From assembly GCA_019745315.1 (NCBI GenBank), contig JAIETH010000001.1, positions 13,049 to 77,048 of the forward strand: a stretch of 64,000 nucleotides of DNA, read 5' to 3'. Both the position numbers and the translations under genes were made by a program. Under the pieces are notes generated by a model, which was not told where the DNA came from, did not search any database, and was given only the letters and a program-made list of their open reading frames with translations. This DNA is from Patescibacteria group bacterium (GTDB lineage: Bacteria; Patescibacteriota; Minisyncoccia; Phycocordibacterales; UBA918). Shown here piece by piece: positions 1,560-64,000 of this stretch (positions within the stretch are counted from its first letter, which is position 1; each line of letters opens with the position of its first letter).

Positions 1560-1572
1560 TATAAATAAAACC

Positions 1573-8466: not shown

Positions 8467-8472
8467 AGTTGG

Positions 8473-9718: not shown

Positions 9719-9818
9719 TAAGTCGCGCGTATCCATTCACGACATAACCCTTCCGCTAGCCTTCCAAGCGACTCCGCTTCAGGGTATGTCGTAAAGGGAT
9801 TATGTAGACTCAGAACAA

Positions 9819-9851
9819 ATAAAAAGAGGCGCCGTATGGCGCCTCTTTTTA
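9819..9851. terminator. bidirectional terminator between pth and rpsA
   Basis: aaaaagaggcgcc-gtat-ggcgcctcttttt perfect hairpin. Confidence 0.6.
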
Positions 9852-50545: not shown

Positions 50546-51070
50546 ATGATGAAATATCTCCTCATTGTGTTTTTTGGTCTTATGGCAGTCGGAGCAGCTG
50601 GCTATGGAATTTATATCGCAGCTACACAAGACCTGACTACTGAAGAGCCTCCTCTATCAGAGCCTATTACCGTCTTTCCTGTTCCGGCACCCGATACCGT
50701 ACAAGGCGGTTTTATGTTAGTTACAACACGAGATGAAGATAAGGTGCGGGTTGCTGATGTGCGTAAAAATCCTCTTGAGGTACAGATAGATCCTGACACA
50801 GGGAAGCCAATTTATACTCTTGTGTCTTCGCGGTGGGTAGATGGTAGGGGGGAAGGGTATGGACTGGCATTTGATGAGGGCTTTGGACTCTTTGTGGTAA
50901 CGGTGCATGAAGACTCATCTGGTACACAGCAGATACTTGCTGAACGTGAATTGCTTCGACGACTTGAAGTTTCCACTAAAGATTTTTGTCGATTACAATT
51001 TTATCTAACTGTCGTAGAGGCAGACGGATCATGGAGTGAGAGCACGAAACCTTCGCTATGCAATTTGTAA
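50546..51070 (+). CDS. membrane-anchored hypothetical protein (paralog of 49961-50512)
   Basis: N-terminal TM helix. C-terminal …DFCRLQFYLTVV… block. Confidence 0.4.
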   Translation: MMKYLLIVFFGLMAVGAAGYGIYIAATQDLTTEEPPLSEPITVFPVPAPDTVQGGFMLVTTRDEDKVRVADVRKNPLEVQIDPDTGKPIYTLVSSRWVDGRGEGYGLAFDEGFGLFVVTVHEDSSGTQQILAERELLRRLEVSTKDFCRLQFYLTVVEADGSWSESTKPSLCNL

Positions 51071-52002: not shown

Positions 52003-52076
52003 GGGCGATTAGTTTAGTGGTAGAACATAGGTCTCCAAAACCTACGGTGGGGGTTCGATTCCCTCATCGCCCGCCA
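52003..52076 (+). tRNA. tRNA-Trp (anticodon CCA), CCA-3' encoded
   Basis: GGGCGAT...TAGGT-CTCCAAA-ACCTA...GGGGGTTCGATTCCCTC-ATCGCCC-G-CCA. Confidence 0.9.
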
Positions 52077-52181
52077 AGTCGTGCTAGCACGAGACGCTAG
52101 GAATAAAACTTATAATTCAAATTTAAGTGACAAGTTTTATTTAAAATGAAATTATAAAATATTAACTTTAATAGACTATTT

Positions 52182-52676
52182 ATGAATATAATTAATTTCC
52201 TAGATTTTACAGACCCGCTCGTAATAATGTTTACGGTAGATTTGTTTATTGCACTGGTTATCGGTTTTATAATTGGCGCAGAAAGAGAATCGCGAGGTAA
52301 AGACGCTGGAATCAGTACACATACATTTGTAATTGTTGGCGCGATGTTGTTTACGTTTCTTTCAATGGTTGTTGATCCAGCCTCTAAATCTCGGATTGCT
52401 GCTCAAATTGTTACTGGTATTGGTTTCTTGGGAGCGGGTATTATTCTCAAAGATGGAGCACAAGTTAGAAATTTAACTACTGCTGCTAGTATTTGGTTTG
52501 CCGGAGCAATCGGAATGGCTATTGGTTTTGATTATCATGAAATTGCTATTATTGCTGCGATAGCATCAGTTTGTATTCCTCGCATCCCTCATATCAGTAG
52601 CAAAAAAACGAGGCAAGGCAGTAAAAAAAATACTAACGAGGAAGAAAAAGACGCAATGCAATTTAGTGACGATTAA
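52182..52676 (+). CDS. mgtC: MgtC/SapB-family membrane protein
   Basis: LVIGFIIGAERESRGKDAGISTHTFVIVGAMLF is the MgtC signature region. Confidence 0.75.
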   Translation: MNIINFLDFTDPLVIMFTVDLFIALVIGFIIGAERESRGKDAGISTHTFVIVGAMLFTFLSMVVDPASKSRIAAQIVTGIGFLGAGIILKDGAQVRNLTTAASIWFAGAIGMAIGFDYHEIAIIAAIASVCIPRIPHISSKKTRQGSKKNTNEEEKDAMQFSDD

Positions 52677-52763
52677 TAGTATTGCATGAGCGCCAATTGG
52701 CGAATATTTGTAATTAATTAGAATAGCCAAAATAACATTAGATCAACTAAGAAAAAGCCGGAT

Positions 52764-53444
52764 ATGAAATCTATTATTACTAACCCATGGTTTGAGCGAT
52801 TAGTACTTGCTATCATCGTGGCCAATGCTATTACTCTTGGACTTGAAACCTATCCCGCCATTATGTTGGCGTACGGTAGCACTTTAATGAAGCTAGATTT
52901 GGTTTTTGTCGGGTTCTTTGTAATTGAGCTTTCGTTGCGTCTTTCAGTTTTAGGTCGCACGTTTTGGCAAGACGGATGGAACTGGTTTGATGCGACAGTG
53001 GTTGGGTTAACGGTTCTTCCATTTTTAGGAGTGAGCGGGATTGGTAACGTATCGGCTTTTCGAGCAGTCCGGCTTTTACGTGTTCTGAGCATTATTCCAT
53101 CTTTTAGACGGGTACTCGCGGGTATCGGCCGAGCACTTTCAGGAAGCTTTGCAGTAATGGCAGTATTAGCTGTAATTCTTTATGTATATGCAGTTGTGTC
53201 GGTAAAACTTTTTCGTGATGTAAGTCCTGAAAAATTTGCCGATCTAGGAACGTCGTTTTTTACCTACTTTCAAATTATGACCCTCGATGCTTGGAGCGAC
53301 ATCGTACTTCCTATTATGGCTGTGTACTGGTGGGCGGGAATGTTTTTTGTAAGTTTTATTGTAACAGCTGTATTTATCTTACTGAGTATCCTCATCGGTG
53401 TAGCTAGTAACGCAATGAATGAAAATGACACTGAGAAAAAGTAA
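52764..53444 (+). CDS. voltage-gated ion channel, BacNaV-like (single 6TM repeat)
   Basis: S4 with Arg every third residue (FRAVRLLRVLSIIPSFRRV). Pore loop FTYFQIMTLDAWSDIV, compared with TLESWS(M) in NaChBac/NavAb. Confidence 0.7.
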   Translation: MKSIITNPWFERLVLAIIVANAITLGLETYPAIMLAYGSTLMKLDLVFVGFFVIELSLRLSVLGRTFWQDGWNWFDATVVGLTVLPFLGVSGIGNVSAFRAVRLLRVLSIIPSFRRVLAGIGRALSGSFAVMAVLAVILYVYAVVSVKLFRDVSPEKFADLGTSFFTYFQIMTLDAWSDIVLPIMAVYWWAGMFFVSFIVTAVFILLSILIGVASNAMNENDTEKK

Positions 53445-53537
53445 TTATTTATTGAACGTATTTAAAGTTTGTATGTTTGATGCAAACTAACTTTTTTATT
53501 ATTTAAAGTAAGTTGAGAATTAAAACTAGAAATAATC

Positions 53538-53668
53538 TACCTTTTCTGTTTAAAAGTTCCATCTTTGAGCAAAAACTTAATACACCTCCTAATATCTATA
53601 TCTTCGACTTCAAAGTTAACGCCCTGCCCAAGCAAGAATGCATTTAATCTTTTACGCCCTACACGTAC
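53538..53668 (-). pseudogene. 3'-terminal remnant of a second serine recombinase gene
   Basis: Minus-strand translation ...AFLLGQGVNFEVEDIDIRRCIKFLLKDGTFKQKR* aligns with the C-terminus of the intact recombinase (…SVLGQELNFEIGDIDIKPYIKFLLKDGTIEEKR…). The rest of the gene is absent. Confidence 0.55.
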
Positions 53669-53689
53669 AAAATTGTATATCCAAATCTA

Positions 53690-54025
53690 TTAATAATTTA
53701 TCGCTTTTCGTTTTTTAGGTTCGGGTAACTCATCAAACGTAATTTGTATAAGTTTACTTAACCAAACATGATCTTCAATCTTTTCACTATCAATTTGAAT
53801 TGAAGGCTTTGCCCCAGGACAGGCAATGCCTTCAATATAATCGTTACCTAGATATTTTTGTCCTCCGACTGTCCTTTTTATAAACAATGTATCGCTACAA
53901 ATAAGACCTACTACTTTTCCTTCTTTATACAATGCATATTCGCCAAACATTTTCTTTACAGTGATAGCTCTTAGGTCAACCAGTTGATCTAAAATGTATT
54001 CAACTGTGCTGGGGCCAGTTGCCAT
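53690..54025 (-). CDS. TfoX N-terminal-domain-like protein
   Basis: LRAITVKKMFGEYALYKEGKVVGLICSDTLFIK matches the TfoX_N pattern (MFGG.glY...la.v.dd.LylK). Confidence 0.5.
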   Translation of the reverse strand: MATGPSTVEYILDQLVDLRAITVKKMFGEYALYKEGKVVGLICSDTLFIKRTVGGQKYLGNDYIEGIACPGAKPSIQIDSEKIEDHVWLSKLIQITFDELPEPKKRKAINY

Positions 54026-54031
54026 GTTTTT

Positions 54032-54445
54032 TTAAAATAAACCCAATGCAAAACTAATTACTCCACCCATAAAACCCACAGTTGCAACCGCAGCAATAAT
54101 GTCTGCAATAATTGGTTTAAAGTTATTGAAAAGATGAGATGTGGCGTACCAGTATGTACTCGTCATAATAGAAATCATGCCTCCGATAAATCCTCCAATT
54201 AAAACACCTTCCGCTAGGGTATTTGTTTCTGTCCACTGTGTGAATAGGATGGTGAGAAGTAACGAATATGCGACACAGGAAATGAAAAGCCAGATTAAAC
54301 TCGATTCAGCGTCACTTTTCTTAAAACCTTGAGCAGAGGTCATGTTATTTGCCATGAACTTGCCGAGTGCGAATTCAAATACAAACCACCCGATAATGAA
54401 ATAGCCAACTGCACCCAGGGCTGTTGCGGTAATTATTTCTAGCAT
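54032..54445 (-). CDS. four-helix membrane protein
   Basis: Hydrophobic 137-aa ORF. Confidence 0.4.
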   Translation of the reverse strand: MLEIITATALGAVGYFIIGWFVFEFALGKFMANNMTSAQGFKKSDAESSLIWLFISCVAYSLLLTILFTQWTETNTLAEGVLIGGFIGGMISIMTSTYWYATSHLFNNFKPIIADIIAAVATVGFMGGVISFALGLF

Positions 54446-54486
54446 ATACGAATTATTATATACTTAATTTAATGGTCTTATCTTGT

Positions 54487-55809
54487 TTAATGCAATGATA
54501 TCTGTTTATTTTGCAATAGTATTTCACTTTTAAAACACGACATAATCTCTCGCTTCTCTTCAATCGTCCCGTCTTTAAGTAAAAATTTTATATACGGCTT
54601 AATATCTATATCTCCAATCTCAAAGTTAAGCTCCTGACCGAGCACAGACGCTTCAAATTTCTTATACCTCGTTACTTCAGCCGCGATCTGTTTTTTAACC
54701 GTTAAGTCATGTATGGCTATCGTATCGACTAGACTTTGCAGTTGCTTAATGAGTTCTGTCTCTGAAACATAACCACACGGACAATGTTTATCTATTGCTC
54801 TAGTGCAACCGTAGTAGACATGAACGTTCATACCACCACCTTTCAGCTTTTTGTATTTCTCACTAGCACTAATACCAGATCCGCATAGACCACATTTCAT
54901 AATGCGAGTGAAGGCAAATTCATGGTCTGCTCGTGTCTTTAGCTCATTTCCCTTAACTTGAGCTTGTACCAGATCAAAAAGTTCTTTGGTGATAAGTGGT
55001 GCATGTTTACCCTGATACCAATTGCCACTGTTTTTAGGATATTCAAAGACTCCGTAGTAGAAGTGGTTATCAAGGATTTTGTAGATGTTACCGAGGCTCA
55101 AATGCTTCTTGCTCGGCAACGCTCTGAAATTCAGCTCGAATTTAAGCCAGTTGTATACTTTCCTGCCACTCCACTTTTCATACGCTACTTTTTCAAATAC
55201 CTGTTTAATCACCTGTCCTCTCTCAGGATCAATGTATGTCTCACACTTCCTATCCATGCGTTTTTCTTTTAGATAACCAGTTGGTGCAGGTGCCGGCCAT
55301 AAACCCATTTCAACTCTGGTCTTTAGTCCACGCTTCACATTAATACTTTTGTTGTCGTTTTCTAGCTTGGCTTGAGAACACAGAATCATCAAGAGAAACT
55401 TCTCACTCGGTGTGTTCGTAAATGTTTGTCCGTATGTGCGTATTTCACGGAGTAGATGTTGATCCATGAGATCAACGAGTGAACCGAGGTCACCTGCATT
55501 TCGACTCAATCGGTCTGGATGCCAGACAATAATGCCGTTGAAGCGTTCTCGTCTAATGTCCTCAAGTATTTCTTTAAAAACTGGTCGTTGCCCTGAGTCC
55601 TTTGCAGAATGTGACTCACGCCTAATCTCTACAATCTCCAACCCTTCACGTTCTGCAATTTCACACATCTCCTTAACTTGAGAGTCGATGGAAAGAGCTT
55701 GTTTCTCATCAGACTCAGTACTTTTGCGTGCGTATAGTAGGTACTTAACGGGCACTTTTGGTACATCAGTCTTTACTCCAAAGTTGTTCATTACTTGCGT
55801 TTCCATCAT
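54487..55809 (-). CDS. large serine recombinase (resolvase catalytic domain + recombinase domain + zinc ribbon + coiled coil)
   Basis: YARKSTESDEKQALSIDSQ catalytic Ser region. GIIVWHPDRLSRN. Recombinase-domain zinc ribbon CGLCGS...C..CGY. 440 aa. Confidence 0.85.
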   Translation of the reverse strand: MMETQVMNNFGVKTDVPKVPVKYLLYARKSTESDEKQALSIDSQVKEMCEIAEREGLEIVEIRRESHSAKDSGQRPVFKEILEDIRRERFNGIIVWHPDRLSRNAGDLGSLVDLMDQHLLREIRTYGQTFTNTPSEKFLLMILCSQAKLENDNKSINVKRGLKTRVEMGLWPAPAPTGYLKEKRMDRKCETYIDPERGQVIKQVFEKVAYEKWSGRKVYNWLKFELNFRALPSKKHLSLGNIYKILDNHFYYGVFEYPKNSGNWYQGKHAPLITKELFDLVQAQVKGNELKTRADHEFAFTRIMKCGLCGSGISASEKYKKLKGGGMNVHVYYGCTRAIDKHCPCGYVSETELIKQLQSLVDTIAIHDLTVKKQIAAEVTRYKKFEASVLGQELNFEIGDIDIKPYIKFLLKDGTIEEKREIMSCFKSEILLQNKQISLH

Positions 55810-56002
55810 TAATTAATGACAGACCTGCACGAGATGCATAGCTATGCAGACTAAGAAATACGTCACATACTCGCTGATTGTCCTTAGCAAAAGTGCAAAC
55901 ATGCGATAGAGTGAAATCGGTAGCAAAATCTGCTATTATTGTTCTCGAACAATTGAATATTAGACCTAACCCCTTAAGTCTCTTGAGGATATGGTCGCAA
56001 AT

Positions 56003-56145
56003 CCGTCCAAAGTAAAAAGCTCCTAATCAGGGCTACTTTGGACGGTCATATCGGGAAACTGGTATGGGCATATCTCACGGGGTATGTCGGCTTGGTTAGG
56101 AGCTTTTTGCTATCTGATCAAATTATTAAAAACCGTCCAAATAAT
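56003..56145. promoter_or_regulatory. nested inverted repeats/operator-like motif cluster in the divergent intergenic region next to the recombinase gene
   Basis: IR1 ccgtccaaagta (56003-56014) / tactttggacgg (56035-56046). IR2 aaaagctcctaa (56015-56026) / ttaggagctttt (56096-56107). A third ccgtccaaa copy lies at 56133-56141, directly before the ATG at 56146. Confidence 0.4.
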
Positions 56146-56646
56146 ATGAATACAATCAAAAAATGTCCTAAGTGCCAAAAAGAGGTCGATGCAAAAGCAA
56201 CTAAGTGTCCGTACTGCCAGTCAGACACAAGAAGCTGGGTAAGACAGCATCCAATCGGAGTGTTCCTGCTCTTTCTCATCTTTTTACCAATCGTTATCAG
56301 TCAGATCAATGCTGAACCAACACCAGTGCAGACTCCAGCTCAACAAATTCATGAAGTGAAGTTTCAAAGTGCAAGAATTCTTGCAAAGTCACACATAGAG
56401 AAAATTCCCCTTACTTCACCATCGACAGCAAAATACAATCCACCGACTACAAAAGTTGACCCAACAGATCCGAATCTTTTTGAAGTTTCGTCATACATAG
56501 ACAGTCAAAACGGATTTGGTGCAATGGTTCGTACATATTGGTCAATGAAGCTTAAGTTCAAAGGTGAAGATACTCAAGAATCAGTCGAAACAGATGCAAA
56601 CTGGGAAATCGTTGAGTTCACTTTTGACGGCGAAAAGATTAAGTAG
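56146..56646 (+). CDS. zinc-ribbon membrane protein
   Basis: CPKCQKEVDAKATKCPYCQ zinc ribbon followed by a TM helix. Start trimmed to MNTIKK at 56146. Confidence 0.4.
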   Translation: MNTIKKCPKCQKEVDAKATKCPYCQSDTRSWVRQHPIGVFLLFLIFLPIVISQINAEPTPVQTPAQQIHEVKFQSARILAKSHIEKIPLTSPSTAKYNPPTTKVDPTDPNLFEVSSYIDSQNGFGAMVRTYWSMKLKFKGEDTQESVETDANWEIVEFTFDGEKIK

Positions 56647-57109
56647 TTTTAGAAGCGTCTTTCTGCGGAATCCATCTATCCAGCATCTCTCTCGCTCTCT
56701 TTACTGCATTAGCAGCTTTTTCTGCACTGTCACGGTTTAGCTTTTCTTCCATCTTTCTCTTGTTCTGATAATGGGTCTCAATTCGTTTTTGCTCAAATTG
56801 ATCATTTGAGGCATCTCGATGTCTGAATGGCATTTTGTATGCTTCGTGCCTATGACTTAACCAGTACTTTGTGTATGCAGCATCTTTATTTTTGATGCCA
56901 GTAAGGACATTGCTTTCTGCCACATCATTTACCAAACCCACACCAAATCCCATAGCCTTATTCACCTCATTGAAGCTGTCTTCGCTTTCATTCATCCACC
57001 GATAAAACGTCTGACGAGAAATGCCAAACTTTTCACAAACCACTTGAATAATAGGAGTACGTTCTAGCTCTTCTAAAATCTTACTCCATAACACTTTAGT
57101 TTTCTTCAT
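56639..57109 (-). CDS. HTH protein resembling a phage terminase small subunit
   Basis: KILEELERTPIIQVVCEKFGISRQTFYRWMNE is a terminase-small/transposase-type HTH. A basic coiled-coil C-terminus follows. Confidence 0.4.
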   Translation of the reverse strand: MKKTKVLWSKILEELERTPIIQVVCEKFGISRQTFYRWMNESEDSFNEVNKAMGFGVGLVNDVAESNVLTGIKNKDAAYTKYWLSHRHEAYKMPFRHRDASNDQFEQKRIETHYQNKRKMEEKLNRDSAEKAANAVKRAREMLDRWIPQKDASKTT

Positions 57110-58532
57110 GTGACTGGACCTTTACTTTGAGACCAGTCAGCTTCTCATAGCGATTAATAATAAGATCGCAGAAGGCTGGTTCAAGTTCACAACCGTACAC
57201 TCTTCGACCAAGAGCGTTACCTGCGATTAAGGTACTTCCAGAGCCAAGGAAACTATCGAGAATGATGTCGTTCATCTTAGTACAGCGTTTGATCGCTTTC
57301 TCATGAAGACATGGTGGTTTAGACGTAGCGTGTTTATAGTCTTTGGCGGCTAAACGCTTGGCGGTCCAGATATCTATAAAGTCGTCAACCTCGCTAAGTA
57401 AGTTGTTGCCTGTGCTAAGTTCTTTATTCATCACTTCGTTAAGGTTGGTAATCGGTTCTGCCAAATGTGGTTTGCCACGAGTTCCGTATACCACAGGCTC
57501 GTATACCTTATTGAACGCCACGCCAGGTACGGGGTTCTGGTTATTTTTCAACCATAAACACACTCGCTTATTGCTGATTCCGAGTTGCCTGTATATCTCC
57601 TGTACAACCCCGATAAATACTTGATCGCACCAGTAGAAAACATGAGTATCTTTATTTGATACCGCTAAGGCTGACTCCATACTATCTTTGAGAAACTTCT
57701 GGTATTCAGCAAACGTTCGTTTATCTTTTACATTTCCTCCATAGTCTTGCTTTCCTCCAATACCGCCGTTGTAGTCGATGTTGATGTTATAGACGGGGTC
57801 AGAGTAAATCATTGAGACTTTCTCATTGCCAAGGAGTCGCTTTAGAGTTTCTGGCTTAGTAGAGTCGCCGCAAATAACCCTATGCTTGCCGAGAGTAATA
57901 AGGTCACCAAGTTTCGTCTTTGGCTCTACAATCTTCTTTAATTCTTTTTCTTCGTCAAAACTATCGTCGGCAACCTCTGTCTCTTTGTCGTAGATGTCTG
58001 ACAACTCAATATCGTCAAAACCACCAAACTCAAGTGCACCCATTTCAAATCCTTTGAGTAGATCGAAATCCCAGTCGCCACCAAGCTTGTTAGAAGCGAT
58101 GAGATACTCGTCTGATTCTTCTTTAGTTAGCTTACGGTTCGGAACTCTTACATCAATAATTTCATCACCACGATTAAGAAGCTGAAGGGCCTTGATTCGT
58201 TGATGGCCTGCAAGGATAGAGCCATTAGCATCTATGGCAGGTATTTCTACTAAGTTGTATTTCTTCAGGCTTCGCTTCAAGTCCGACATTTGTTTGTCGG
58301 TAATAGAGCGAGGGTTAACGTCTTGAGGGATAAGATCATTAACTCGCCTTTGGGCTGTTGCCCATATAAGTTTTTTCATACCTACACTACGTTTACTATT
58401 TTTAAGTTTGGCTGCGCCCAGTTTCAGGGGGCAATTGTTATCGCAGTCTTTACGTGTGGTATGAAATGTATCTATAACAAGTTTATCAATTTGATAAACT
58501 ATGTCAATGGGTTTATACTGGGGATATGTCAA
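57096..58532 (-). CDS. ParB-like nuclease domain fused to a beta-class N4/N6 DNA methyltransferase
   Basis: ParB/Srx motif EIPAIDANGSILAGHQRIKAL. MTase motif IV SDPVYNI (DPPY-like). Motif I DSFLGSGST lies near the C-terminus (beta-class order). Confidence 0.75.
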   Translation of the reverse strand: MTYPQYKPIDIVYQIDKLVIDTFHTTRKDCDNNCPLKLGAAKLKNSKRSVGMKKLIWATAQRRVNDLIPQDVNPRSITDKQMSDLKRSLKKYNLVEIPAIDANGSILAGHQRIKALQLLNRGDEIIDVRVPNRKLTKEESDEYLIASNKLGGDWDFDLLKGFEMGALEFGGFDDIELSDIYDKETEVADDSFDEEKELKKIVEPKTKLGDLITLGKHRVICGDSTKPETLKRLLGNEKVSMIYSDPVYNINIDYNGGIGGKQDYGGNVKDKRTFAEYQKFLKDSMESALAVSNKDTHVFYWCDQVFIGVVQEIYRQLGISNKRVCLWLKNNQNPVPGVAFNKVYEPVVYGTRGKPHLAEPITNLNEVMNKELSTGNNLLSEVDDFIDIWTAKRLAAKDYKHATSKPPCLHEKAIKRCTKMNDIILDSFLGSGSTLIAGNALGRRVYGCELEPAFCDLIINRYEKLTGLKVKVQSHEEN

Positions 58533-58783
58533 AGAAACTATCTTTTAAGCAACTCGACATACAAATTGGTCAGAAAATTAAAGGGTGTCGTCAGAAAGCA
58601 AATTACTCGCAAACCAATCTTGCAGAGTTGTTGAAATATGAATCACCAACAGCAATTTCATTAATTGAAAGTGGTGAAAGAAGCCTAAAAATTCACGATC
58701 TTATTATTCTCTGTCAACTCTTTGATAAAGATTATAATCACTTTATTGGTCGTCCGTCTGAACATAAAAATAGGATAATTTAG
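58526..58783 (+). CDS. XRE-family helix-turn-helix regulator
   Basis: QIGQKIKGCRQKANYSQTNLAELLKYESPTAISLIESGER is a Cro/C1-type HTH. Confidence 0.6.
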   Translation: MSKKLSFKQLDIQIGQKIKGCRQKANYSQTNLAELLKYESPTAISLIESGERSLKIHDLIILCQLFDKDYNHFIGRPSEHKNRII

Positions 58784-58844
58784 TAGGACTACTCACATAC
58801 CAGATAAGTTCGAGATACTAAGCTAAAAATGGTAAAATCGAGTT

Positions 58845-61800
58845 GTGATCGCCAATGTTAACTGGAACAACTTTAGGGTAAAATTCGACAACCAAAACGA
58901 GGTCGCTTTTGAACGTCTCTGTTATCTCTTGTTTTGCAAAGAATTTAACAAAAACCTCGGAATATTCAGATTCAAAAACCATGCTGGAATTGAGACCAAT
59001 CCCGTTGAACATGAAGGTAAGATTATTGGTTGGCAAGCAAAATTTTATAGCACAGCACTATCGCAACATACTGCCGATTTCAAAGAATCTATCGATAAAA
59101 CTAAGGAAAGACATCCTGAAGTAAATAAGATTATCTTCTACACGAATCAGGAGTTTGGTCAGGATAAAATGAAGACGGATCCGCGATATAAGAAAGATCT
59201 AGAGACTCATGCAAAATCGAATGGAGTAGAAATTGAATGGAGGACAGGAAGCTACTTTGAGTCACTGTTTGTATCTGAAGACAACTTCAGCATTGCACAG
59301 CATTTCTTTGACCTTAAGCCTGGCATCATTGATTCTATTATTGAACTGCAAAAGTACACCGACCAAGTATTGCAACCGATCCGGTCGCAGATTGCTTTCG
59401 GAGAGAATTCTGTCAAACTTGATAGGTCTTCAATCGTCGGAGGAATCAGAGATACAGCCAAGAACTTTCCGATTGTCGTTCTAAGTGGTGGTGCAGGGGT
59501 TGGTAAAACAGCAGTCGTAAAGGATCTATACGAAGCAGTTAAAGAATCGACACCGTACCTTGTCTTTAAAGCCACGCAATTCAAGAGTGCAACACATATA
59601 AATCAGCTTTTCAAGGATTATGGAGAGATAACAGCAACAGAATTTATTGCTGAACATAAAGATATCAATGAAAAATATGTGGTCTTTGATTCATCTGAGA
59701 GACTTTCAGAGATTGAGGATCAGGATGTATTTAGAATGTTTCTATCCGAACTGGTCACAAATGGGTGGACTGTCATTTTTACAGTACGGCATAGTTACCT
59801 TGATGATCTACGATTTCAGTTAAAGGAATTTTATGGAACCAATTTCGCATCTCTTAATATTCCATATCTCTCAACAGAAGAAGTAGAAAAAATTTCCAAA
59901 GAATTTAAATTTGAAATCCCAAAAAATGCCAGACTGGCAAATCTGCTATTAACGCCACTTTATCTGAGCGAATATTTGCAGGATTATAGCGAGAGTAGAG
60001 CAAACATTAGCTATAATGATTTCCGTGAAACTATCTGGAAGAAACAGATTCAGAACTCAAGTTATCAATCAAATAACTTGCATAGGCGCAGAGAGGAATG
60101 TTTTCTGAAGGTTGCGAAGCAGCGAGCAAATGAAGGTGGTTTCTTTGTAAAAACTGATGAATCAGATCACGAGGCACTTCAAAAGTTAGGGGCAAGCGAA
60201 ATCATAAAATTTGATTCAAAAGCTGGAGGCTATTTCATAACCCATGACGTGTACGAGGAATGGGCGTTGGATATACTCATTGAGAGAGCCTTCAATAGTG
60301 CATCAGACTACCAGAGTTTTTATGCTGAAATTGGTAACTCGCTTCCAATTCGACGTGCTTTTAGGAATTGGTTATCTGATAAGCTCTTTGCTAATGATGA
60401 CAAGGCAAAGAAGCTGATTGAATTTACTGTCCAAGATTCCAGTTTTGAAAATCACTGGAAAGATGAAGTTTTAGTCTCGGTACTTCTTTCCGATTACTCA
60501 GAAGTGTTTTTTGAACTCTTTGAAAAAGAACTACTTACAGATCCTGAGCGAGTAGTTTCAGTCGTAAGCGCTACTGAAGGAATTAGAGTATTTGATATTA
60601 ATTACCAAATTGAGAAGAAACTTATACATAGAATTCTCTTCCTTCTACGCATTGCTTGTAAGACAGTTGATGAGGACTTTTTGAGTCGTCTGGGTTTGAG
60701 TCGTGCAAACGCATTATCGCTAGAAACGATTTTTACTACTCCAAAGGGCAGTGGGTGGTCTTCAACAATTGCTTTCATCAATAAGCATAAAGATAAGTTC
60801 AAGCTCATGTACATGCACGTCATCCTTCCTGTTCTGGACGATTGGAATCGAAGTCATCAGCAAGGTGAGACTACAAAGAATGCAAGCCAGATTGCTCTTT
60901 TTTACTACAATACTCTAACAGCACAAAAAGATTTTTACTTTGGTTCAAGAGATAGTACTAAAGAACCACTAATTAGAACCATTTTAAATGGATCTGGCGA
61001 GATAAAAGAAGAGTTAAGTAAGATTATCAAAGCTGTTGTATTAACAAAAGACACTACACACCGAAGCAGGTATTATGAGTTAGTAAATACAATACTCTCA
61101 TCGATCCTAGATAGTACAGTAGCGGCAAGGAATCTGCCGAAGGAAGTTATAAAGCTTGCGAATCTGTTTTGGTTTGATAATTCTCCTGAGGATGAGTACT
61201 CTCACTTAAACTATCGAAATGATCTTGAACAGTATTACGGTCTTACGTCGGGTCATCTCGATTATTATCCAGCCAGTGCTTATCAAACCCCAATAGGAAC
61301 ATTGCTCCAAACTGCTCCGCAAGAAACAGTAAATTTTATTCTTGCGTTCACAAATAAAGTAATTGAATATTTTTCTAAATCGGAATTAGGAAACGAAGCG
61401 GAGTACATTGACGTTATCATTGACGAAGTTGGAACAACCGTTAAACAATATATTGGTCACCGTATTTGGAACATATATCGTGGCACCCAGACGAATCCTC
61501 CTTTACTAGAGTCCATTCACATGGCTTTAGAAAGTTGGTTACTTTGGTTAGCAAAGACATATGATGTAGAATTGGTAGAAAACTGGTGTTTTTATTTAAT
61601 TAAACATTCCCGATCTACATCAATTACGGCAATAGTTGTAAGTGTGGTTCTTGCTGAACCAACAAAGCTTTTCAATGTTGCAAAGATTCTTTTAAAGAAT
61701 AAGGATTTCTTCTTCTTTGATCTCTCTCGACTGCAGTTAGATAGATCACATGCAAAGTTTTCCTACTCAATGGCTCATGATCCTGGAGGGATATTTAGAA

Positions 61801-63680
61801 ACGAACGATTGCAAACTTGTGAAGATAAGCATCGTGAACGCTACCTTGAAAATCAAGCTTTGAATTACCAATTATTTTCTGACGAAGGTGAAAAAGAAGA
61901 TTTGGCAAAAGGTAGGCAAGAGGCCGTATGGAAGATACTAGACGAACATTATGCAAAGTTACCAAACAAGAAGAAAGAAACTAACAGCGATAAAACGTGG
62001 AGACTTACCTTGGCCAGAATGGATCGTCGAAAGATGAAAATCTCTACAGAGGAGAAAGACAAACAAATTTTTATAAGCTTTAATCCTGAAATTGATCCTG
62101 AACTGCGACAGTACAGCGAAAATGCTCAAGCTAAGAGTTCAGAGGCATTGAAATATACGCCTTTACAATTATGGTCTCACAATAAGTTTGAGAAGAATGA
62201 GGATGCTAAAAAGTATCTTCAATATGAAGATGGTCACGATTTGACACTTTCTGAAACAAAGACAATTCTTGAAAAATTAACTATCGAGAAAGACGAAGGG
62301 AGCCAATTTAGGTTGTTCTATCATTCAGTTCCAGCTTACGTTTGTTCTGTACTTCTCAGAGATTATGCAGAAGAGCTAAGTCCAGAAGACGCAGAATTCT
62401 GTAAAGATATTGTGCTTGACTATGCTTCCATGCCTTTACGGGAAGGTTACAGCTATCAGATTGGAGATGGATTGGAAGCAGCAGTAAATATTCTTCCTCT
62501 TCTAATCAAAAAGTTCCCTAAGGACGCTGCAAAAATTAAAGAAGTGTTATTATTGATCCTCTTTGATTCTTATCCAATCGGTACGAGTCAGCGAGTTTCT
62601 GATTATGCAGTCGCATCCATTTTGCAATATTTATGGCCAGAAAGTCCTAATGATGCTAATGCCATACTGTATGGATATTTGTTACTTAAACCAAAATTTG
62701 ATCAGATAAGTGAATCTATCAGGGAAGAGAACCGAAAGAATCAGAAACGTGATTTTTCTAGAATTCCAGTGCTGAAACGATTCAAGAAAGAATGTAAAAC
62801 TGGAATTAAGAAAGTTGTTTCCAGTCAGCTTTCTTATGGAAATATACAAAATGCCGCTGAAATAGATCCTGACGTACTCGTGACCGCTTTTCTATTAGTA
62901 CCATTAAAAACTACCGACGCTGATCATAAGAAGTTTTTGCGAGACATAAGTCCGACTCTCATTGAGGCATTTAAGAATGAGGACAGAGAAGAACGCCTCG
63001 ACTATGTTCTTGAACACAGGTTCTTGGATAAATTTGCTCACTTCGTACTTTACTCACCCAAAGAAGAAATTGAGGCGTATGTAGAACCATTCATCGAGCT
63101 TATTGGCGACTTCAGACGAAGGAAGGATGTGGCTGATGTATTCGAAGCGTTTATTATTGCGGAAGATGCAATAAACCAGTACGAGGAATTCTGGATTGTG
63201 TGGCAAGTTTTCTATCCAAAGATAGTAGAACTCTGCTCAGATGAACACCACCTCAGGTATTCAGAGAATGTCGTCTATAAGTATCTCTTGGCTGTACAGT
63301 GGAATAAGGCTGCTAAAGAGTGGCATTCTCTGAAAGATAGAGAGCGGGCTTTCTTCAAGAAAGTCTCTGAGGAGATGGGTGGGAACGCACCTGTTTTATA
63401 TGCACTTGCAAAACTTCTAAACGATATTGGAAGTAACTTTGCCACTGACGGTATCGCTTGGATTAGCGGTTTACTACAAAAGAATTCAAATCTTTCTCAT
63501 AAAGAATTGGAAGTAAACACCGTTTACTATCTAGAAAATCTTGTACGAAGCTATATTCTCAAGAATCGTCAAAAGATTAAAACTGACCCACAGTTGAAAA
63601 AGCAGATCCTTGTCATTTTAGATTTTCTCCTAGAAAAAGCTTCGGTAACTGCCTACCTATTGAGAGAAGATATTTTATAA
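58845..63680 (+). CDS. 1611-aa STAND-type P-loop NTPase with N-terminal Mrr-like PD-(D/E)xK nuclease motif and long C-terminal helical repeat region (Avs-like candidate anti-phage protein)
   Basis: N-terminus AFERLCYLLF...HAGIETNPVEHEGKIIGWQAKFY parallels Mrr_cat (FE.L...LL...DGGIDI...VQCKRY). Walker A VVLSGGAGVGKTAV. Walker B-like YVVFDSSERL. About 1200 aa of Leu/Glu/Lys-rich predicted helical repeats. Confidence 0.7.
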   Translation: MIANVNWNNFRVKFDNQNEVAFERLCYLLFCKEFNKNLGIFRFKNHAGIETNPVEHEGKIIGWQAKFYSTALSQHTADFKESIDKTKERHPEVNKIIFYTNQEFGQDKMKTDPRYKKDLETHAKSNGVEIEWRTGSYFESLFVSEDNFSIAQHFFDLKPGIIDSIIELQKYTDQVLQPIRSQIAFGENSVKLDRSSIVGGIRDTAKNFPIVVLSGGAGVGKTAVVKDLYEAVKESTPYLVFKATQFKSATHINQLFKDYGEITATEFIAEHKDINEKYVVFDSSERLSEIEDQDVFRMFLSELVTNGWTVIFTVRHSYLDDLRFQLKEFYGTNFASLNIPYLSTEEVEKISKEFKFEIPKNARLANLLLTPLYLSEYLQDYSESRANISYNDFRETIWKKQIQNSSYQSNNLHRRREECFLKVAKQRANEGGFFVKTDESDHEALQKLGASEIIKFDSKAGGYFITHDVYEEWALDILIERAFNSASDYQSFYAEIGNSLPIRRAFRNWLSDKLFANDDKAKKLIEFTVQDSSFENHWKDEVLVSVLLSDYSEVFFELFEKELLTDPERVVSVVSATEGIRVFDINYQIEKKLIHRILFLLRIACKTVDEDFLSRLGLSRANALSLETIFTTPKGSGWSSTIAFINKHKDKFKLMYMHVILPVLDDWNRSHQQGETTKNASQIALFYYNTLTAQKDFYFGSRDSTKEPLIRTILNGSGEIKEELSKIIKAVVLTKDTTHRSRYYELVNTILSSILDSTVAARNLPKEVIKLANLFWFDNSPEDEYSHLNYRNDLEQYYGLTSGHLDYYPASAYQTPIGTLLQTAPQETVNFILAFTNKVIEYFSKSELGNEAEYIDVIIDEVGTTVKQYIGHRIWNIYRGTQTNPPLLESIHMALESWLLWLAKTYDVELVENWCFYLIKHSRSTSITAIVVSVVLAEPTKLFNVAKILLKNKDFFFFDLSRLQLDRSHAKFSYSMAHDPGGIFRNERLQTCEDKHRERYLENQALNYQLFSDEGEKEDLAKGRQEAVWKILDEHYAKLPNKKKETNSDKTWRLTLARMDRRKMKISTEEKDKQIFISFNPEIDPELRQYSENAQAKSSEALKYTPLQLWSHNKFEKNEDAKKYLQYEDGHDLTLSETKTILEKLTIEKDEGSQFRLFYHSVPAYVCSVLLRDYAEELSPEDAEFCKDIVLDYASMPLREGYSYQIGDGLEAAVNILPLLIKKFPKDAAKIKEVLLLILFDSYPIGTSQRVSDYAVASILQYLWPESPNDANAILYGYLLLKPKFDQISESIREENRKNQKRDFSRIPVLKRFKKECKTGIKKVVSSQLSYGNIQNAAEIDPDVLVTAFLLVPLKTTDADHKKFLRDISPTLIEAFKNEDREERLDYVLEHRFLDKFAHFVLYSPKEEIEAYVEPFIELIGDFRRRKDVADVFEAFIIAEDAINQYEEFWIVWQVFYPKIVELCSDEHHLRYSENVVYKYLLAVQWNKAAKEWHSLKDRERAFFKKVSEEMGGNAPVLYALAKLLNDIGSNFATDGIAWISGLLQKNSNLSHKELEVNTVYYLENLVRSYILKNRQKIKTDPQLKKQILVILDFLLEKASVTAYLLREDIL

Positions 63681-63696
63681 AGCTAGTAGAAAAATT

Positions 63697-64000
63697 ATGA
63701 ACTACGATGAACTTATAAAAAACTGGCATGCCAAAGCAATAAACGAGGATTTCTTCTCGGGCTTTGTTTTTGAATACTTGGCATTTATTGCGTTTCTAAG
63801 GAAGCGTCTTTTTCAGGATGCTCGTGATGATAGAAGAGCTATTCAGATGTTAAAGCGTGATGAGGAAGTGAGGGCTGAATATTTGCATTGCGTTAAAGCT
63901 GACGAACATCTTACTGATGCTTGGAATAACATCATCGCCGAATTGGTGAGGGCGCAACTCGGTAATGTCAGAGGTAATGGAAACATTGTCGATGAAATTG
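63697..64000 (+). CDS. hypothetical protein, 5' part only (runs off the window)
   Basis: ATG 17 nt after the STAND stop. MNYDELIKNWHAKAINEDFFSGFVFEYLAFIAFLRKRLFQDARDD... with no stop before 64000. Confidence 0.35.
   Translation, partial: MNYDELIKNWHAKAINEDFFSGFVFEYLAFIAFLRKRLFQDARDDRRAIQMLKRDEEVRAEYLHCVKADEHLTDAWNNIIAELVRAQLGNVRGNGNIVDEI

What the first reader, a model, noticed from the sequence alone, without database searches (positions are those of the whole stretch)
52077..64000. Island downstream of tRNA-Trp carrying MgtC, a BacNaV-like channel, a serine recombinase and a phage/defence module
Immediately after the CCA of tRNA-Trp the sequence turns AT-rich. MgtC and a voltage-gated channel are unusual cargo for a minimal genome. 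They are followed by TfoX_N-like and membrane genes, an intact large serine recombinase, a ParB-MTase fusion, a terminase-small-like HTH protein, an XRE regulator and the giant STAND. This organisation is typical of an integrated element or defence island. The right end lies beyond the window.
Basis: partly seen in the sequence, partly recalled or inferred. Interest (0 to 1): 0.6.

Follow-up and report, generated by a model that had tools for sequence, protein, structure and literature searches.

The report
tRNA-Trp mobile island with LOOT RNA
The segment is one copy of a widespread, apparently undescribed family of mobile DNA islands in Patescibacteria that sit at tRNA genes, carry a serine recombinase and anti-phage cargo, and give a genomic home and a likely role to an orphan structured RNA called LOOT.

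Summary

The integrated-island reading holds by comparison with about 100 related loci.
- The LSR is 65-98% identical across Patescibacteria.
- Its 3' end faces the 3' end of a tRNA-Gln, tRNA-Ser or tRNA-Trp gene 1-10 kb away (48 tRNAs in that arrangement, 3-8 in the others).
- In seven relatives a 16-27-nt repeat of the tRNA 3' end marks the far end, giving elements of 10-18 kb with no other recombinase.
- A palindrome (window 52079-52092) follows the tRNA at fixed spacing only in such islands.

The window's own far end lies beyond 64 kb. No empty site was found.

The "att-like palindromes" at 56003-56107 are a LOOT RNA (Rfam RF03000, 79.9 bits). LOOT lies beside this LSR in about 50 of 82 loci. 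It leads a hypervariable, mostly membrane-protein gene. Two further covarying segments reach that gene's start codon, so LOOT is probably a cis-acting switch, not a trans sRNA.

The parts
52003..52076 (+). tRNA-Trp(cca). Its 3' end is the inferred attachment junction of the island (attL, host side).
   Evidence: ARAGORN; Rfam tRNA 71.6 bits. Family pattern of tRNA-Gln/Ser/Trp facing the LSR.
52079..52092 (.). 14-bp perfect palindrome TCGTGCTAGCACGA, 3 nt after the CCA. It is the conserved element-side arm of the tRNA-proximal junction; the wider motif is AGTCGTGCTAGCACGAGACGC at 52077-52097.
   Evidence: It is the only copy in the window. The same motif sits at fixed spacing, 26 nt from the T-loop TTCRA, after 24 tRNA-Gln/Ser/Trp genes and after no other tRNA. 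It is absent from the host flank after the distal repeat in L048, L066, L068 and L071.
52182..52676 (+). MgtC-family membrane protein, cargo on the arm between the tRNA and the LSR.
   Evidence: Pfam PF02308, E 1.6e-34.
52764..53444 (+). Single-domain voltage-gated-type ion channel (BacNaV-like, 226 aa), cargo.
   Evidence: Pfam Ion_trans, E 1.1e-37. About 40 Patescibacteria homologue clusters, then roughly 40%-identical Maricaulis channels. The homologues lie in unrelated contexts.
53690..54025 (-). TfoX_N-domain protein, cargo.
   Evidence: Pfam PF04993, E 6.3e-9.
54032..54445 (-). Small membrane protein, weakly DUF1761-like, cargo.
   Evidence: Pfam PF08570, E 3.8e-5, below the cut-off.
54487..55809 (-). 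Large serine recombinase, the only recombinase of the element. Its 3' end faces the tRNA.
   Evidence: Pfam Resolvase, Recombinase and Zn_ribbon_recom; phrog_95 integrase, E 2.5e-60. Nearest solved structure is SPbeta YokA, E 2e-12. More than 8000 homologues, the top 120 at 69-98% identity. Flanks diverge at its stop codon.
55810..55885 (-). Conserved 5' leader of the LSR gene, about 70 nt, containing the palindrome TGCATAGCTATGCA at 55835-55848.
   Evidence: Present upstream of the LSR in loci with and without LOOT. Function not tested.
55911..55939 (+). Promoter-like site for LOOT (GTGAAA, 17-nt spacer, TG-extended TATTAT).
   Evidence: Consensus scan. The TATTAT element is conserved in LOOT-bearing loci. 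This is a consensus match only.
55963..56088 (+). LOOT RNA (RF03000), with four hairpins P1-P4. P1 carries CCUAA.C/AUGG and P3 an invariant GAAA loop.
   Evidence: Rfam 79.9 bits against a gathering score of 46.4. Folding z-score -7.1. In 55 copies, 91% of cells are paired and 44 of 45 pairs show compensatory change. Invariant positions.
56091..56111 (+). S1, a segment complementary to the apical 5' strand of P2 (56011-56031). It contains a U-run.
   Evidence: Inverted repeat I2. Duplex energy -26 against -11.7 kcal/mol in cross-locus controls, p 1e-28. On a MAFFT alignment, 78% paired and 14 of 18 pairs compensatory, including G.U.
56133..56141 (+). S2, a copy of the P2 5' arm (CCGTCCAAA), complementary to the P2 3' arm, ending 4 nt before the start codon of the next gene.
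   Evidence: Exact 9-nt copy in 37 of 51 LOOT copies against 0 of 510 controls. R:S2 is 87% paired with 8 of 9 pairs compensatory and 0 of 500 shuffles as good.
56146..56646 (+). Gene X of this copy: a zinc-ribbon, single-TM membrane protein of 166 aa in the hypervariable slot that LOOT leads.
   Evidence: Weak zinc-ribbon hits; phrog_13160, E 7e-15; TM segment at residue 32. The slot holds Ltp, Imm_superinfect, DUF4352, bPH and other families elsewhere.
56639..57109 (-). HTH protein in the terminase-small-subunit position of the family backbone.
   Evidence: Pfam HTH_28; phrog_4102 TerS, E 5e-6. Found in 43 loci between the methylase and TerL.
57096..58379 (-). ParB-like domain plus N6/N4 DNA methyltransferase. 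The ORF extends to 58532, but the likely start is the ATG at 58379.
   Evidence: Pfam N6_N4_Mtase, E 2e-28; phrog_498 and phrog_620 ParB-like. Present in 56 loci with a median length of 427 aa.
58526..58783 (+). XRE-type HTH regulator, divergent from the methylase. It takes the place of the LexA/CI-like S24 repressor seen in other members.
   Evidence: Pfam HTH_3, E 8e-9; phrog_3 and phrog_8 repressor. Family f4 is Peptidase_S24 plus LexA_DNA_bind.
58845..63680 (+). Avs4 antiviral STAND NTPase, defence cargo on the distal arm.
   Evidence: PADLOC Avs4, 1911 bits, profile positions 3-1570 of 1570. Same position in L001.

Best explanation
Window 52077 to beyond 64000 is one integrated copy of a family of 10-18 kb mobile islands of Patescibacteria.

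How it is integrated (inferred):
- The family's large serine recombinase inserts the element at the 3' end of a tRNA gene, here tRNA-Trp and elsewhere mostly tRNA-Gln or tRNA-Ser.
- The element carries a copy of the last 16-27 nt of the tRNA, so the tRNA stays intact and a partial copy marks the far end.
- Next to the tRNA the element begins with a conserved palindrome (52079-52092).

Layout, read from the tRNA:
1. A variable cargo arm, here MgtC, an ion channel, TfoX_N and a small membrane protein.
2. The recombinase gene, pointing at the tRNA.
3. An optional LOOT-plus-variable-gene cassette.
4. A phage-like backbone of a TerS-like HTH protein and a ParB-methylase. Most relatives also have a large terminase; this copy does not.
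5. A repressor, here XRE.
6. A second cargo arm holding a defence system, here Avs4.

No capsid, portal or tail genes occur in any delimited member, so the element looks like a phage-satellite-like defence island and not a prophage.

LOOT RNA:
- It is transcribed from its own promoter away from the recombinase gene, as the 5' leader of the variable gene.
- That gene usually encodes a membrane-anchored protein, including known superinfection-exclusion families.
- After the four LOOT hairpins come two more covarying segments. S1 can pair with the top of hairpin P2 and contains a U-run. S2 lies just before the start codon and can pair with the 3' arm of P2.
- The alternative pairings have similar predicted stability.
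- The RNA therefore most likely switches between a compact fold that leaves the start site open and folds that terminate transcription or mask the start site.

Shown: gene identities, the family, the tRNA linkage, the repeats in relatives, and the RNA covariation.

Inferred: that the LSR itself performs the tRNA integration, the satellite lifestyle, the direction of the switch and what triggers it.
For: Family and linkage:
- LSR homologues exceed 8000, and the top 120 share 69-98% identity. In species-representative genomes 500 stretches encode a relative, nearly all in Patescibacteria MAGs.
- The backbone methylase > HTH > TerL > LSR recurs: the methylase in 56 loci, HTH in 43 and TerL in 40. 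TerL matches phrog_38 at E 2e-73.
- tRNA asymmetry is 48 against 5, 8 and 3.
- Distal repeats of the tRNA 3' end (16-27 nt, 94-100% identical) occur in L024, L048, L066, L068, L071, L031 and L041.
- No tyrosine recombinase was detected in the delimited elements among the genes scanned; several proteins gave no Pfam hit.
- Cargo includes CBASS, Thoeris, Shedu, restriction-modification and copper-resistance genes. The window's cargo is Avs4.
- The junction palindrome sits at fixed spacing after Gln, Ser and Trp tRNAs only.
- L001, whose LSR is 98% identical, shares the Avs4-XRE-methylase-HTH-X-LOOT-LSR block but has a different LSR-to-tRNA arm.

LOOT:
- Rfam hits in the window, L001 and L002.
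- My own covariance model finds 48 full-length and 2 contig-truncated copies in 82 loci, nearly all 150-280 bp upstream of the LSR on the other strand. It finds none in 241 kb of control loci.
- Covariation is strong.
- S2 and S1 statistics.
- The alternative folds are near-isoenergetic.
- 41 of 55 X proteins have a predicted TM segment. Pfam families include Ltp and Imm_superinfect.
Against: - The window's own distal end and repeat are not visible, and no empty tRNA-Trp site was found in a relative.
- Composition is only mildly atypical.
- Serine integrases are generally reported, to my knowledge, to target protein-coding or intergenic sites and to need only a 2-bp core. A 16-27-bp tRNA repeat is the classical signature of tyrosine integrases. 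A recombinase acting in trans is not excluded.
- This copy lacks TerL, so it may be a decayed or non-packaging variant.
- Homology with L001 stops exactly at the LSR stop codon. Taken alone, that could mean the element ends there.
- For LOOT, no transcript data exist. The basal P2 stem has almost no G-U pairs, which is unusual for a purely RNA-level helix.
Confidence: 0.72

Rival explanations
1. Composite region. The LSR element ends at the LSR stop codon (about 54.45-54.49 kb). MgtC, the channel, TfoX_N and the DUF1761-like gene would then be ordinary chromosomal or older accessory genes that happen to lie between it and tRNA-Trp.
For: - Nucleotide homology with L001 (LSR 98% identical) ends about 30 bp inside the LSR 3' end, and the downstream genes differ completely.
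- Flanks of all LSR copies diverge at the stop codon.
- Homologues of the channel sit in ordinary chromosomal contexts elsewhere, for example next to secE-nusG in L098.
Against: - The family-specific palindrome arm lies directly after tRNA-Trp, 2.4 kb from the LSR, and is identical to that of related elements at tRNA-Ser.
- In the delimited relatives the repeat-bounded element always includes the variable LSR-to-tRNA arm.
- No second tRNA-core copy or palindrome lies between 52.1 and 54.5 kb, which a junction between two elements would require.
- GC is lowest in this segment, 0.367.
Confidence: 0.12
2. An immobile remnant. The region is a decayed prophage or island fixed in this lineage, the LSR no longer moves it, and the tRNA linkage reflects ancient events or another integrase acting in trans.
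For: - This copy has no TerL and no structural genes.
- The same junction is present in two other samples of the same strain (L083, L084).
- Some loci have the LSR alone, without the backbone.
Against: - The LSR ORF is intact and 98% identical to a copy in a different genomic context.
- 65-85% identity across classes of a very divergent phylum, several copies per genome and tandem arrays point to recent horizontal spread.
- Exact 18-27-nt repeats persist in relatives.
Confidence: 0.12
3. LOOT is not a cis-acting leader. Either it is a trans-acting small RNA, as Rfam types it, or its perfect palindrome P2 plus S2 are DNA-level protein-binding or recombination sites used for cassette exchange.
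For: - Rfam lists LOOT as 'Gene; sRNA'.
- The P2 basal stem has only Watson-Crick pairs, about 0.7% G-U against about 16% in P3 and P4.
- The LOOT-X cassette occupies at least three positions relative to the backbone and is absent in about a third of elements.
- One LOOT type is joined to four different X genes, in the window, L002, L043 and L050.
- The U-run in S1 could end a short RNA.
Against: - LOOT is always followed on the same strand, within 45-110 nt, by an ORF whose start codon abuts S2.
- S1 pairing includes many G.U pairs, so it is strand-specific and RNA-level.
- The invariant GAAA loop and the CCUAA/AUGG receptor-like loop point to a folded RNA.
- The P2 arms differ completely between LSRs that are 98% identical, so the LSR cannot read them as sequence.
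Confidence: 0.15
4. A complete temperate prophage whose structural genes lie beyond the window.
For: The element has a repressor, ParB-methylase, TerS-like and (in relatives) TerL genes, and an integrase. Thirteen related contigs are in IMG/VR.
Against: - Seven relatives are fully delimited at 10.4-18 kb. The Pfam scans of their non-backbone genes gave defence, restriction-modification and metal-resistance hits or none, and no capsid, portal or tail domain.
- The IMG/VR contigs show the same small module, judged by similarity to the families already found.
Confidence: 0.04

Closest known systems
Phage satellites and phage-inducible chromosomal islands (PICI, P4-like) that carry defence hotspots
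   Same: - Size of 10-18 kb.
- An integrase, a CI/LexA-like or XRE repressor with a divergent early operon, packaging genes without structural genes, and variable slots filled with anti-phage systems (CBASS, Thoeris, Shedu, Avs4).
- Integration at fixed chromosomal sites.
   Different: - The recombinase is a large serine recombinase, not a tyrosine integrase.
- Many members have a large terminase as well as the TerS-like protein.
- No replication or primase module was recognised.
- The host phylum is Patescibacteria.
- No helper phage is known and induction is untested.
- This copy lacks TerL.
Serine-integrase prophages and elements (SPbeta SprA/YokA, TP901-1, A118, phiC31, Bxb1)
   Same: The three-domain LSR architecture. 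The nearest solved structure is SPbeta YokA. The recombinase gene lies near one end of the element.
   Different: - Those integrases, to my knowledge, target sites in or between protein-coding genes, with essentially a 2-bp common core.
- Here the junctions overlap tRNA 3' ends with a 16-27-bp repeat.
- Closely related LSRs sit at different tRNAs (Ser-gct, Ser-tga, Ser-gga, Trp).
- The protein is short (440 aa) and only distantly related (E 2e-12).
tRNA-associated genomic islands with tyrosine integrases
   Same: Insertion at the 3' end of a tRNA gene, reconstitution of the tRNA, a partial tRNA repeat at the far end, tandem accretion, and mixed cargo.
   Different: No tyrosine integrase is present. 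The recombinase gene is not next to the tRNA; it is separated from it by 1-10 kb of cargo and points towards it.
LOOT RNA motif (Rfam RF03000; Weinberg et al. 2017, PMC5737381 is the source paper, but the motif is not described in its main text and no supplement was held)
   Same: Full-length match to the four-hairpin consensus, well above the gathering score.
   Different: - Rfam types it as an sRNA gene. From memory, it was known only from metagenomes without an assigned organism or function.
- Here it is placed in Patescibacteria, tied to one mobile-element family, and extended by about 60 nt (S1, S2) to the start codon of a downstream gene.
Lysogeny-module superinfection-exclusion genes such as ltp of Streptococcus phage TP-J34
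   Same: A small membrane or lipoprotein gene beside the integrase, transcribed from its own promoter. Some X genes are Ltp-family or Imm_superinfect-family.
   Different: The slot is far more variable, and it is preceded by a large structured leader that is not known for ltp.
Riboswitch-type or other conformational 5' leaders with expression platforms
   Same: A compact conserved fold followed by mutually exclusive helices. One contains a U-run and one covers the translation start.
   Different: No ligand or trigger is known. The switching helix is hypervariable in sequence and Watson-Crick only. The downstream genes share no common function beyond being mostly membrane proteins.

Membership tests
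LOOT RNA (Rfam RF03000) | Covariance-model score at or above the curated gathering score over the full model | tested here: met
   79.9 bits against 46.4, model positions 1-121 of 121, E 2e-13.
LOOT RNA (Rfam RF03000) | Four-hairpin secondary structure supported by covariation | tested here: met
   In 55 copies, 91.4% of cells are paired, 44 of 45 pairs show double-sided change and 0 of 500 shuffles do as well. The alignment was fitted to the model, so it leans towards the structure. Single-sequence folds give the same four hairpins, z -5.5 to -8.2.
LOOT RNA (Rfam RF03000) | Acts as a free-standing trans-acting sRNA (Rfam type 'Gene; sRNA') | tested here: inconclusive
   Context argues for a cis-acting leader: an ORF always follows, and S1 and S2 covary with P2. 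No expression data are available.
Large serine recombinase (serine integrase) | N-terminal resolvase catalytic domain, recombinase domain and zinc-ribbon domain | tested here: met
   PF00239 E 2e-21, PF07508 E 5e-12, PF13408 E 6e-7. The sequence has the YARKS motif at the expected catalytic-serine position (assignment by eye). phrog_95 integrase.
Large serine recombinase (serine integrase) | Catalyses attP x attB integration of the element that encodes it | not testable with these tools
   Inferred from three points: it is the only recombinase detected in seven delimited elements, its orientation to the tRNA is constant, and the junction arm is conserved.
tRNA-integrated genomic island | Begins at the 3' end of an intact tRNA gene | tested here: met
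   The family-specific junction arm starts 1-3 nt after the CCA of tRNA-Trp.
tRNA-integrated genomic island | Direct repeat of the tRNA 3' end at the distal boundary | not testable with these tools
   For the window itself there is no copy within it, and the sequence beyond 64 kb is not retrievable. The feature is met in seven relatives.
tRNA-integrated genomic island | Empty site in a related genome | tested here: inconclusive
   The only relatives of the flanking pilin gene are on 1.3-kb contigs. Channel homologues lie in unrelated contexts.
Avs4 (antiviral STAND) | Full-length match to the Avs4 profile, including the NTPase core | tested here: met
   PADLOC PDLC02169, 1911 bits, residues 4-1611 on profile positions 3-1570. 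Weak AAA and NACHT hits in Pfam.
Phage satellite (PICI-like) | Integrase, repressor and packaging gene(s), with no virion structural genes, in a 10-20 kb element | tested here: met
   Met for the family. In the window the only packaging-type gene is the weak TerS-like HTH; TerL is absent.
Phage satellite (PICI-like) | Induction, excision and packaging by a helper phage | not testable with these tools
   No helper phage is known and there are no experimental data.
Complete prophage | Capsid, portal, tail and lysis genes within the element | tested here: not met
   The Pfam scans of the non-backbone genes of the delimited elements found none. The IMG/VR relatives show only the same small module by family similarity.
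Riboswitch or conformational leader | Conserved fold followed by mutually exclusive helices that affect termination or initiation | tested here: met
   S1 and S2 covariation. Energies are near-equal, with a mean difference of 4.2 kcal/mol, and the minimum-energy fold alternates among the three helices across loci.
Riboswitch or conformational leader | A defined ligand or signal | not testable with these tools
   The downstream genes share no metabolic theme.

The most novel reading that the evidence does not exclude
LOOT is a new class of signal-responsive riboregulator that gates the superinfection-exclusion slot of a phylum-wide family of serine-recombinase satellites. Its hypervariable, Watson-Crick-only triplet (P2 5' arm, P2 3' arm, S2) would work as an element-specific address. 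LOOT RNAs of co-resident or incoming elements could then cross-regulate or ignore each other, like the incompatibility groups of plasmid antisense RNAs. In parallel, the LSR would be a serine integrase that reads the universal tRNA T-arm, so that it can be re-targeted among tRNAs simply by carrying a different tRNA-end copy.
Probability: 0.15. Interest if true: 0.8.

Novelty: new variant of a known kind. Interest (0 to 1): 0.6.

Why it matters
- Patescibacteria have tiny genomes and few described mobile elements. A family of serine-recombinase islands with hundreds of members that moves Avs, CBASS, Thoeris, Shedu, restriction and metal-resistance genes would be a main route of accessory-gene flow in the phylum.
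- tRNA-end targeting by a serine integrase, with near-identical enzymes found at several different tRNAs, would widen what these enzymes are thought to recognise. That matters for their use as genome-engineering tools.
- LOOT has been an orphan motif. Placing it in a host phylum, a genetic context and a testable cis-regulatory model, with defined nucleotides to mutate, turns it into an experimentally approachable RNA.

Tried and rejected
Searches that led nowhere:
- Exact-protein look-ups of the window's Avs4 and LSR found nothing.
- The source contig (NCBI, 315,805 bp) is visible only as a name. Two short contigs of the same strain were retrieved, so nothing beyond 64 kb could be read.
- The empty-site search through the flanking T4SS-pilin gene failed. 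Only three homologues exist, and the two that are not identical to the query are on 1.3-kb contigs.
- The empty-site search through the ion channel found homologues in three unrelated chromosomal contexts with no MgtC, tRNA-Trp or LSR.
- The metagenome scan with Avs4, meant to reach the distal end, found Avs4 in other contexts. Only L105 has an LSR, and it is a different 553-aa one that overlaps tRNA-Asn.
- Searching the window for a repeat of the tRNA-Trp 3' end found none. The other short repeats in 51.9-64 kb look like chance matches, apart from the LOOT I2 pair.
- The literature held nothing on LOOT beyond a list mention, and nothing on serine-recombinase islands at tRNAs in Patescibacteria.
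- An exact-pattern scan of public collections for LOOT was considered and dropped. Only about 14 positions are invariant, which is too few for specificity.

Ideas rejected:
- P2 as the LSR att site. It is intact in integrated copies, and its sequence differs completely between LSRs that are 98% identical.
- A tyrosine integrase among the roughly 300-360-aa proteins near the element ends. These turned out to be a SMODS cyclase, ThsA, an Exo_endo_phos nuclease, an AAA ATPase or proteins with no hit.
- A half-site spacing model for attP and attB. It fits L024 and L048 but not L066, L068 or L071, so it is not claimed.

Alignment problems:
- MAFFT misaligns the variable P2 arms, giving 52% pairing for L:R in A6 against 97% in the model-based alignment.
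- The first MAFFT alignment of three LOOT copies was unusable.

Full report
**1. Observation**

tRNA-Trp(cca) lies at 52003-52076 on the + strand. GC falls from 0.440 upstream to 0.386 in 52077-64000, with the lowest value, 0.367, between the tRNA and the recombinase gene. The GC3 of the genes does not differ significantly from the rest of the window, so composition is only a weak hint.

- MgtC, 52182-52676.
- A 226-aa single-domain Ion_trans channel, 52764-53444.
- A TfoX_N protein, 53690-54025.
- A weakly DUF1761-like membrane protein, 54032-54445.
- A three-domain large serine recombinase (LSR), 54487-55809.
- An HTH protein with only weak similarity to small terminase subunits, 56639-57109.
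- A ParB-like plus N6/N4 methylase fusion, 57096-58379/58532.
- An XRE regulator, 58526-58783.
- A 1611-aa STAND protein, 58845-63680. It matches the PADLOC Avs4 profile end to end at 1911 bits.

**2. The palindromes at 56 kb are an RNA**

An Rfam scan of the whole window gave six tRNAs and one other hit. That hit is LOOT (RF03000) at 55963-56088 on the + strand, at 79.9 bits against a gathering score of 46.4.

LOOT lies 154 bp upstream of the LSR start codon on the opposite strand. It folds into four hairpins with z = -7.1.

**3. The recombinase defines a large family**

The LSR has more than 8000 database homologues. The best 120 clusters are all about 440 aa long and 69-98% identical. Those that carry names are from Nomurabacteria and Pacebacteria, and several lie on contigs of 0.4-1.1 Mb.

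A scan of one genome per species found 500 stretches that encode a relative. The 80 loci kept are almost all from Patescibacteria MAGs, and some genomes hold two copies. Identity this high across so divergent a phylum points to horizontal spread.

I called ORFs in all loci and clustered them. This gave a recurrent backbone of methylase > HTH > TerL > LSR. The methylase is in 56 loci, the HTH protein in 43, and a 494-aa protein in 40. That protein is a large terminase by PHROGs (phrog_38, E 2e-73).

To the left of the methylase, on the other strand, there is often a LexA/CI-like S24 repressor. The window has an XRE regulator in that position, and it lacks TerL.

**4. The islands sit at tRNA genes**

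ARAGORN on all loci showed an asymmetry, which I counted. Within 10 kb of the LSR there are:

| Position relative to the LSR | tRNA genes |
|---|---|
| Downstream, opposite strand (3' end points at the LSR 3' end) | 48 (24 Gln, 15 Ser, 3 Trp, 6 others) |
| Downstream, same strand | 5 |
| Upstream, opposite strand | 8 |
| Upstream, same strand | 3 |

About 0.6 Mb was searched on each side. The window has the majority arrangement.

In seven loci a 16-27-nt repeat of the last part of that tRNA (94-100% identical) lies in the same orientation on the far side of the backbone. These repeats delimit elements of 10.4-18 kb.

The delimited elements have the same layout:
- The arm between the distal repeat and the repressor holds defence systems. 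Examples are a SMODS cyclase plus Cap15 (CBASS), ThsA plus ThsB (Thoeris) and SduA (Shedu).
- The arm between the LSR and the tRNA holds type I, type III or Eco57I-like restriction systems, a copper-resistance cluster (CopA, multicopper oxidase, CsoR, DUF305, assigned by reading the sequences) or Hsp70-like modules.
- None of the proteins scanned there is a tyrosine recombinase, although several gave no Pfam hit.
- No capsid, portal or tail gene turned up in those scans. The thirteen relatives in IMG/VR, classified only by similarity to the families already found, show the same small module.

**5. A junction hallmark ties the window's tRNA-Trp to the family**

Directly after the tRNA in these islands comes a palindrome, G(T/A)GCTAGC(A/T)C. 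Its centre is always 26 nt from the T-loop TTCRA. It follows 24 tRNA-Gln, tRNA-Ser and tRNA-Trp genes and none of 21 other tRNAs.

In L048, L066, L068 and L071 the host sequence after the distal repeat lacks the palindrome, so it belongs to the element. Where it also follows a distal repeat (L024, L041, L038/L078), the arrangement looks like tandem or successive insertions.

The window carries TCGTGCTAGCACGA at 52079-52092, and this is its only copy. The wider 21-nt arm, AGTCGTGCTAGCACGAGACGC, is identical to that of the elements at tRNA-Ser in L005, L007 and L057. In the window, no second tRNA-core copy or palindrome lies between the tRNA and the LSR.

I therefore read the MgtC-to-DUF1761 block as this copy's LSR-to-tRNA cargo arm. 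Two observations fit a hypervariable arm flanked by conserved sequence. Homology with L001 (LSR 98% identical) stops at the LSR stop codon. The flanks of all copies diverge there.

**6. What could not be done**

- The window's distal end is beyond 64 kb. The source contig could not be read further.
- Searches for an empty site through the flanking pilin gene, the ion channel and Avs4 found no sufficiently close relative.
- That the LSR itself performs the tRNA integration is an inference. It rests on the LSR being the only recombinase detected, on its constant orientation, and on the conserved junction arm.
- To my knowledge serine integrases usually target non-tRNA sites with a 2-bp core. This point is therefore both the most interesting and the least proven for the element.
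- L105 adds a parallel case. There a different 553-aa LSR reads across the 3' end of tRNA-Asn on the other strand.

**7. LOOT in context**

Rfam finds LOOT in the same place in L001 and L002. Two rounds of my own covariance model found 48 full-length and 2 contig-truncated copies in the 82 LSR loci. It found 8 more in 13 IMG/VR loci and none in 241 kb of unrelated loci.

In most loci LOOT lies 150-280 bp upstream of the LSR on the other strand. Other placements also occur:
- In four loci it lies about 100 bp after the LSR stop codon on the same strand.
- In a few it lies to the left of the methylase.
- Seventeen loci have TerL running straight into the conserved LSR leader, with no LOOT.

Covariation is strong. 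91% of cells are paired, 44 of 45 pairs show double-sided change, and 0 of 500 shuffles do as well.

The invariant nucleotides are CCUAA.C and AUGG in the internal loop of P1 and the GAAA loop of P3. From memory, the first two resemble the 11-nt GAAA-tetraloop receptor. That resemblance was not tested.

**8. LOOT is the leader of a variable gene**

An ORF always follows LOOT on the same strand. These 'X' genes are highly diverse. 41 of 55 encode a predicted transmembrane segment, typically a short N-terminus (often a zinc ribbon), one TM helix and an outer domain.

Pfam hits include Lipoprotein_Ltp, Imm_superinfect, DUF4352, bPH and T5orf172. The window's X (56146-56646) is of the zinc-ribbon-TM type.

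Two further segments covary with hairpin P2.
- S2 is an exact copy of at least 9 nt of the P2 5' arm, and so is complementary to the P2 3' arm. It ends 1-7 nt before the ATG of X in most of 37 of 51 copies, against 0 of 510 cross-locus controls. The arm has more than 25 different sequences. On a structure-blind MAFFT alignment the R:S2 helix is 87% paired, with 8 of 9 pairs compensatory and 0 of 500 shuffles as good.
- S1 lies just after P4 and contains a U-run. It is complementary to the apical 5' strand of P2. The duplex energy is -26 against -11.7 kcal/mol, p 1e-28. The helix is 78% paired with 14 of 18 pairs compensatory, many through G.U, so it acts at RNA level on this strand.

The three helices (L:R, apical-P2:S1, R:S2) exclude or cross one another. 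Their constrained energies differ by about 4 kcal/mol on average. The predicted minimum-energy fold alternates among them from locus to locus.

A promoter-like site with an extended -10 element precedes LOOT.

The simplest reading is a conformational leader. The compact LOOT fold leaves the start region of X free. The alternative pairings either form a terminator-like helix or mask the start region. Nothing here indicates what shifts the balance.

**9. Oddities left open**

- The basal P2 stem has almost no G-U pairs (about 0.7%, against about 16% in P3 and P4).
- Its sequence is uncoupled from LSR relatedness. It is identical in the window and L002 (LSR 76% identical) and unrelated in L001 (LSR 98% identical).
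- The same LOOT type is joined to four different X genes.

These points suggest module swapping, and perhaps selection for specificity. They also keep alive a DNA-level or trans-acting role, which I rate at about 0.15.

**10. Verdict**

The element is best described as a new variant of known kinds. It is a tRNA-inserted, satellite-like defence and cargo island that is driven, by inference, by a serine recombinase and not a tyrosine recombinase.

The unexpected part is the LOOT RNA. It is a known but orphan motif, and it now has a host phylum, a fixed genetic context and a specific, testable cis-regulatory model.

Noticed in passing
window 55810-55885 (palindrome TGCATAGCTATGCA at 55835-55848): A conserved leader of about 70 nt lies upstream of the LSR start codon. 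It is present in loci with and without LOOT and comes in two sequence types: CGAGTATGYGACG...TCTGCATAGCTATGCA...TCTGTCATTAAT, or GTTGCCAACAAGTTGTCGACA...GCTTAGCAAAAG. It could be an operator or an RNA element that controls recombinase expression.
   Followed up: partly
window 1-2205: GC is 0.344 in the first kilobase. A DUF305 protein at 1573-2205 belongs to the same family (f13) as copper-resistance cargo found next to LSRs in other loci, and is 72% identical in DNA to L002 2717-3136. This may be the edge of another accessory region.
   Followed up: no
window 49040-49945 and 51058-51939: Two T4SS_pilin (PF18895)-type genes with small secreted-protein genes between them lie just upstream of tRNA-Trp. 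The second is nearly lineage-specific, with only 3 homologues at E<1e-20 in 5.8 billion proteins.
   Followed up: partly
L033, L059, L065, L085, L096 (e.g. L065 around 7000-9840): A 350-aa reverse transcriptase (RVT_1, YADD motif) recurs next to the Ltp-type X gene and LOOT, in the order RT > Ltp < X < LOOT <. Its relation to LOOT and to the element is unknown.
   Followed up: no
L105 16297-17991: A different, 553-aa LSR has a 3' end that overlaps tRNA-Asn(gtt) on the opposite strand. It is in an island with a 77%-identical Avs4 and a copper-resistance cluster. This is an independent case of a serine recombinase abutting a tRNA 3' end.
   Followed up: partly
L038/L078 (same contig JAQTUL010000010.1); L024 1973; L041 3075: Two elements lie in tandem about 13 kb apart. 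In several loci the tRNA-core-plus-palindrome junction is repeated at the distal end. Both suggest successive insertions at one tRNA.
   Followed up: partly
L053, L058, L090/L091: These loci have second, more divergent LSR genes near the main one. In L090/L091 two LSR genes are adjacent.
   Followed up: no
window 52764-53444: The channel's pore region reads FQIMTLDAWSD (TLDAW, where I recall TLESW from NaChBac). The protein ends right after S6, without the C-terminal coiled coil I recall in BacNaV channels. Close homologues are rare, about 40 clusters, all in Patescibacteria.
   Followed up: no
window 56111-56124 and 62695-62708: A 14-nt perfect inverted repeat (TATCTGATCAAATT / AATTTGATCAGATA) links the LOOT expression platform to a site inside the Avs4 gene. 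It is probably a chance match.
   Followed up: no
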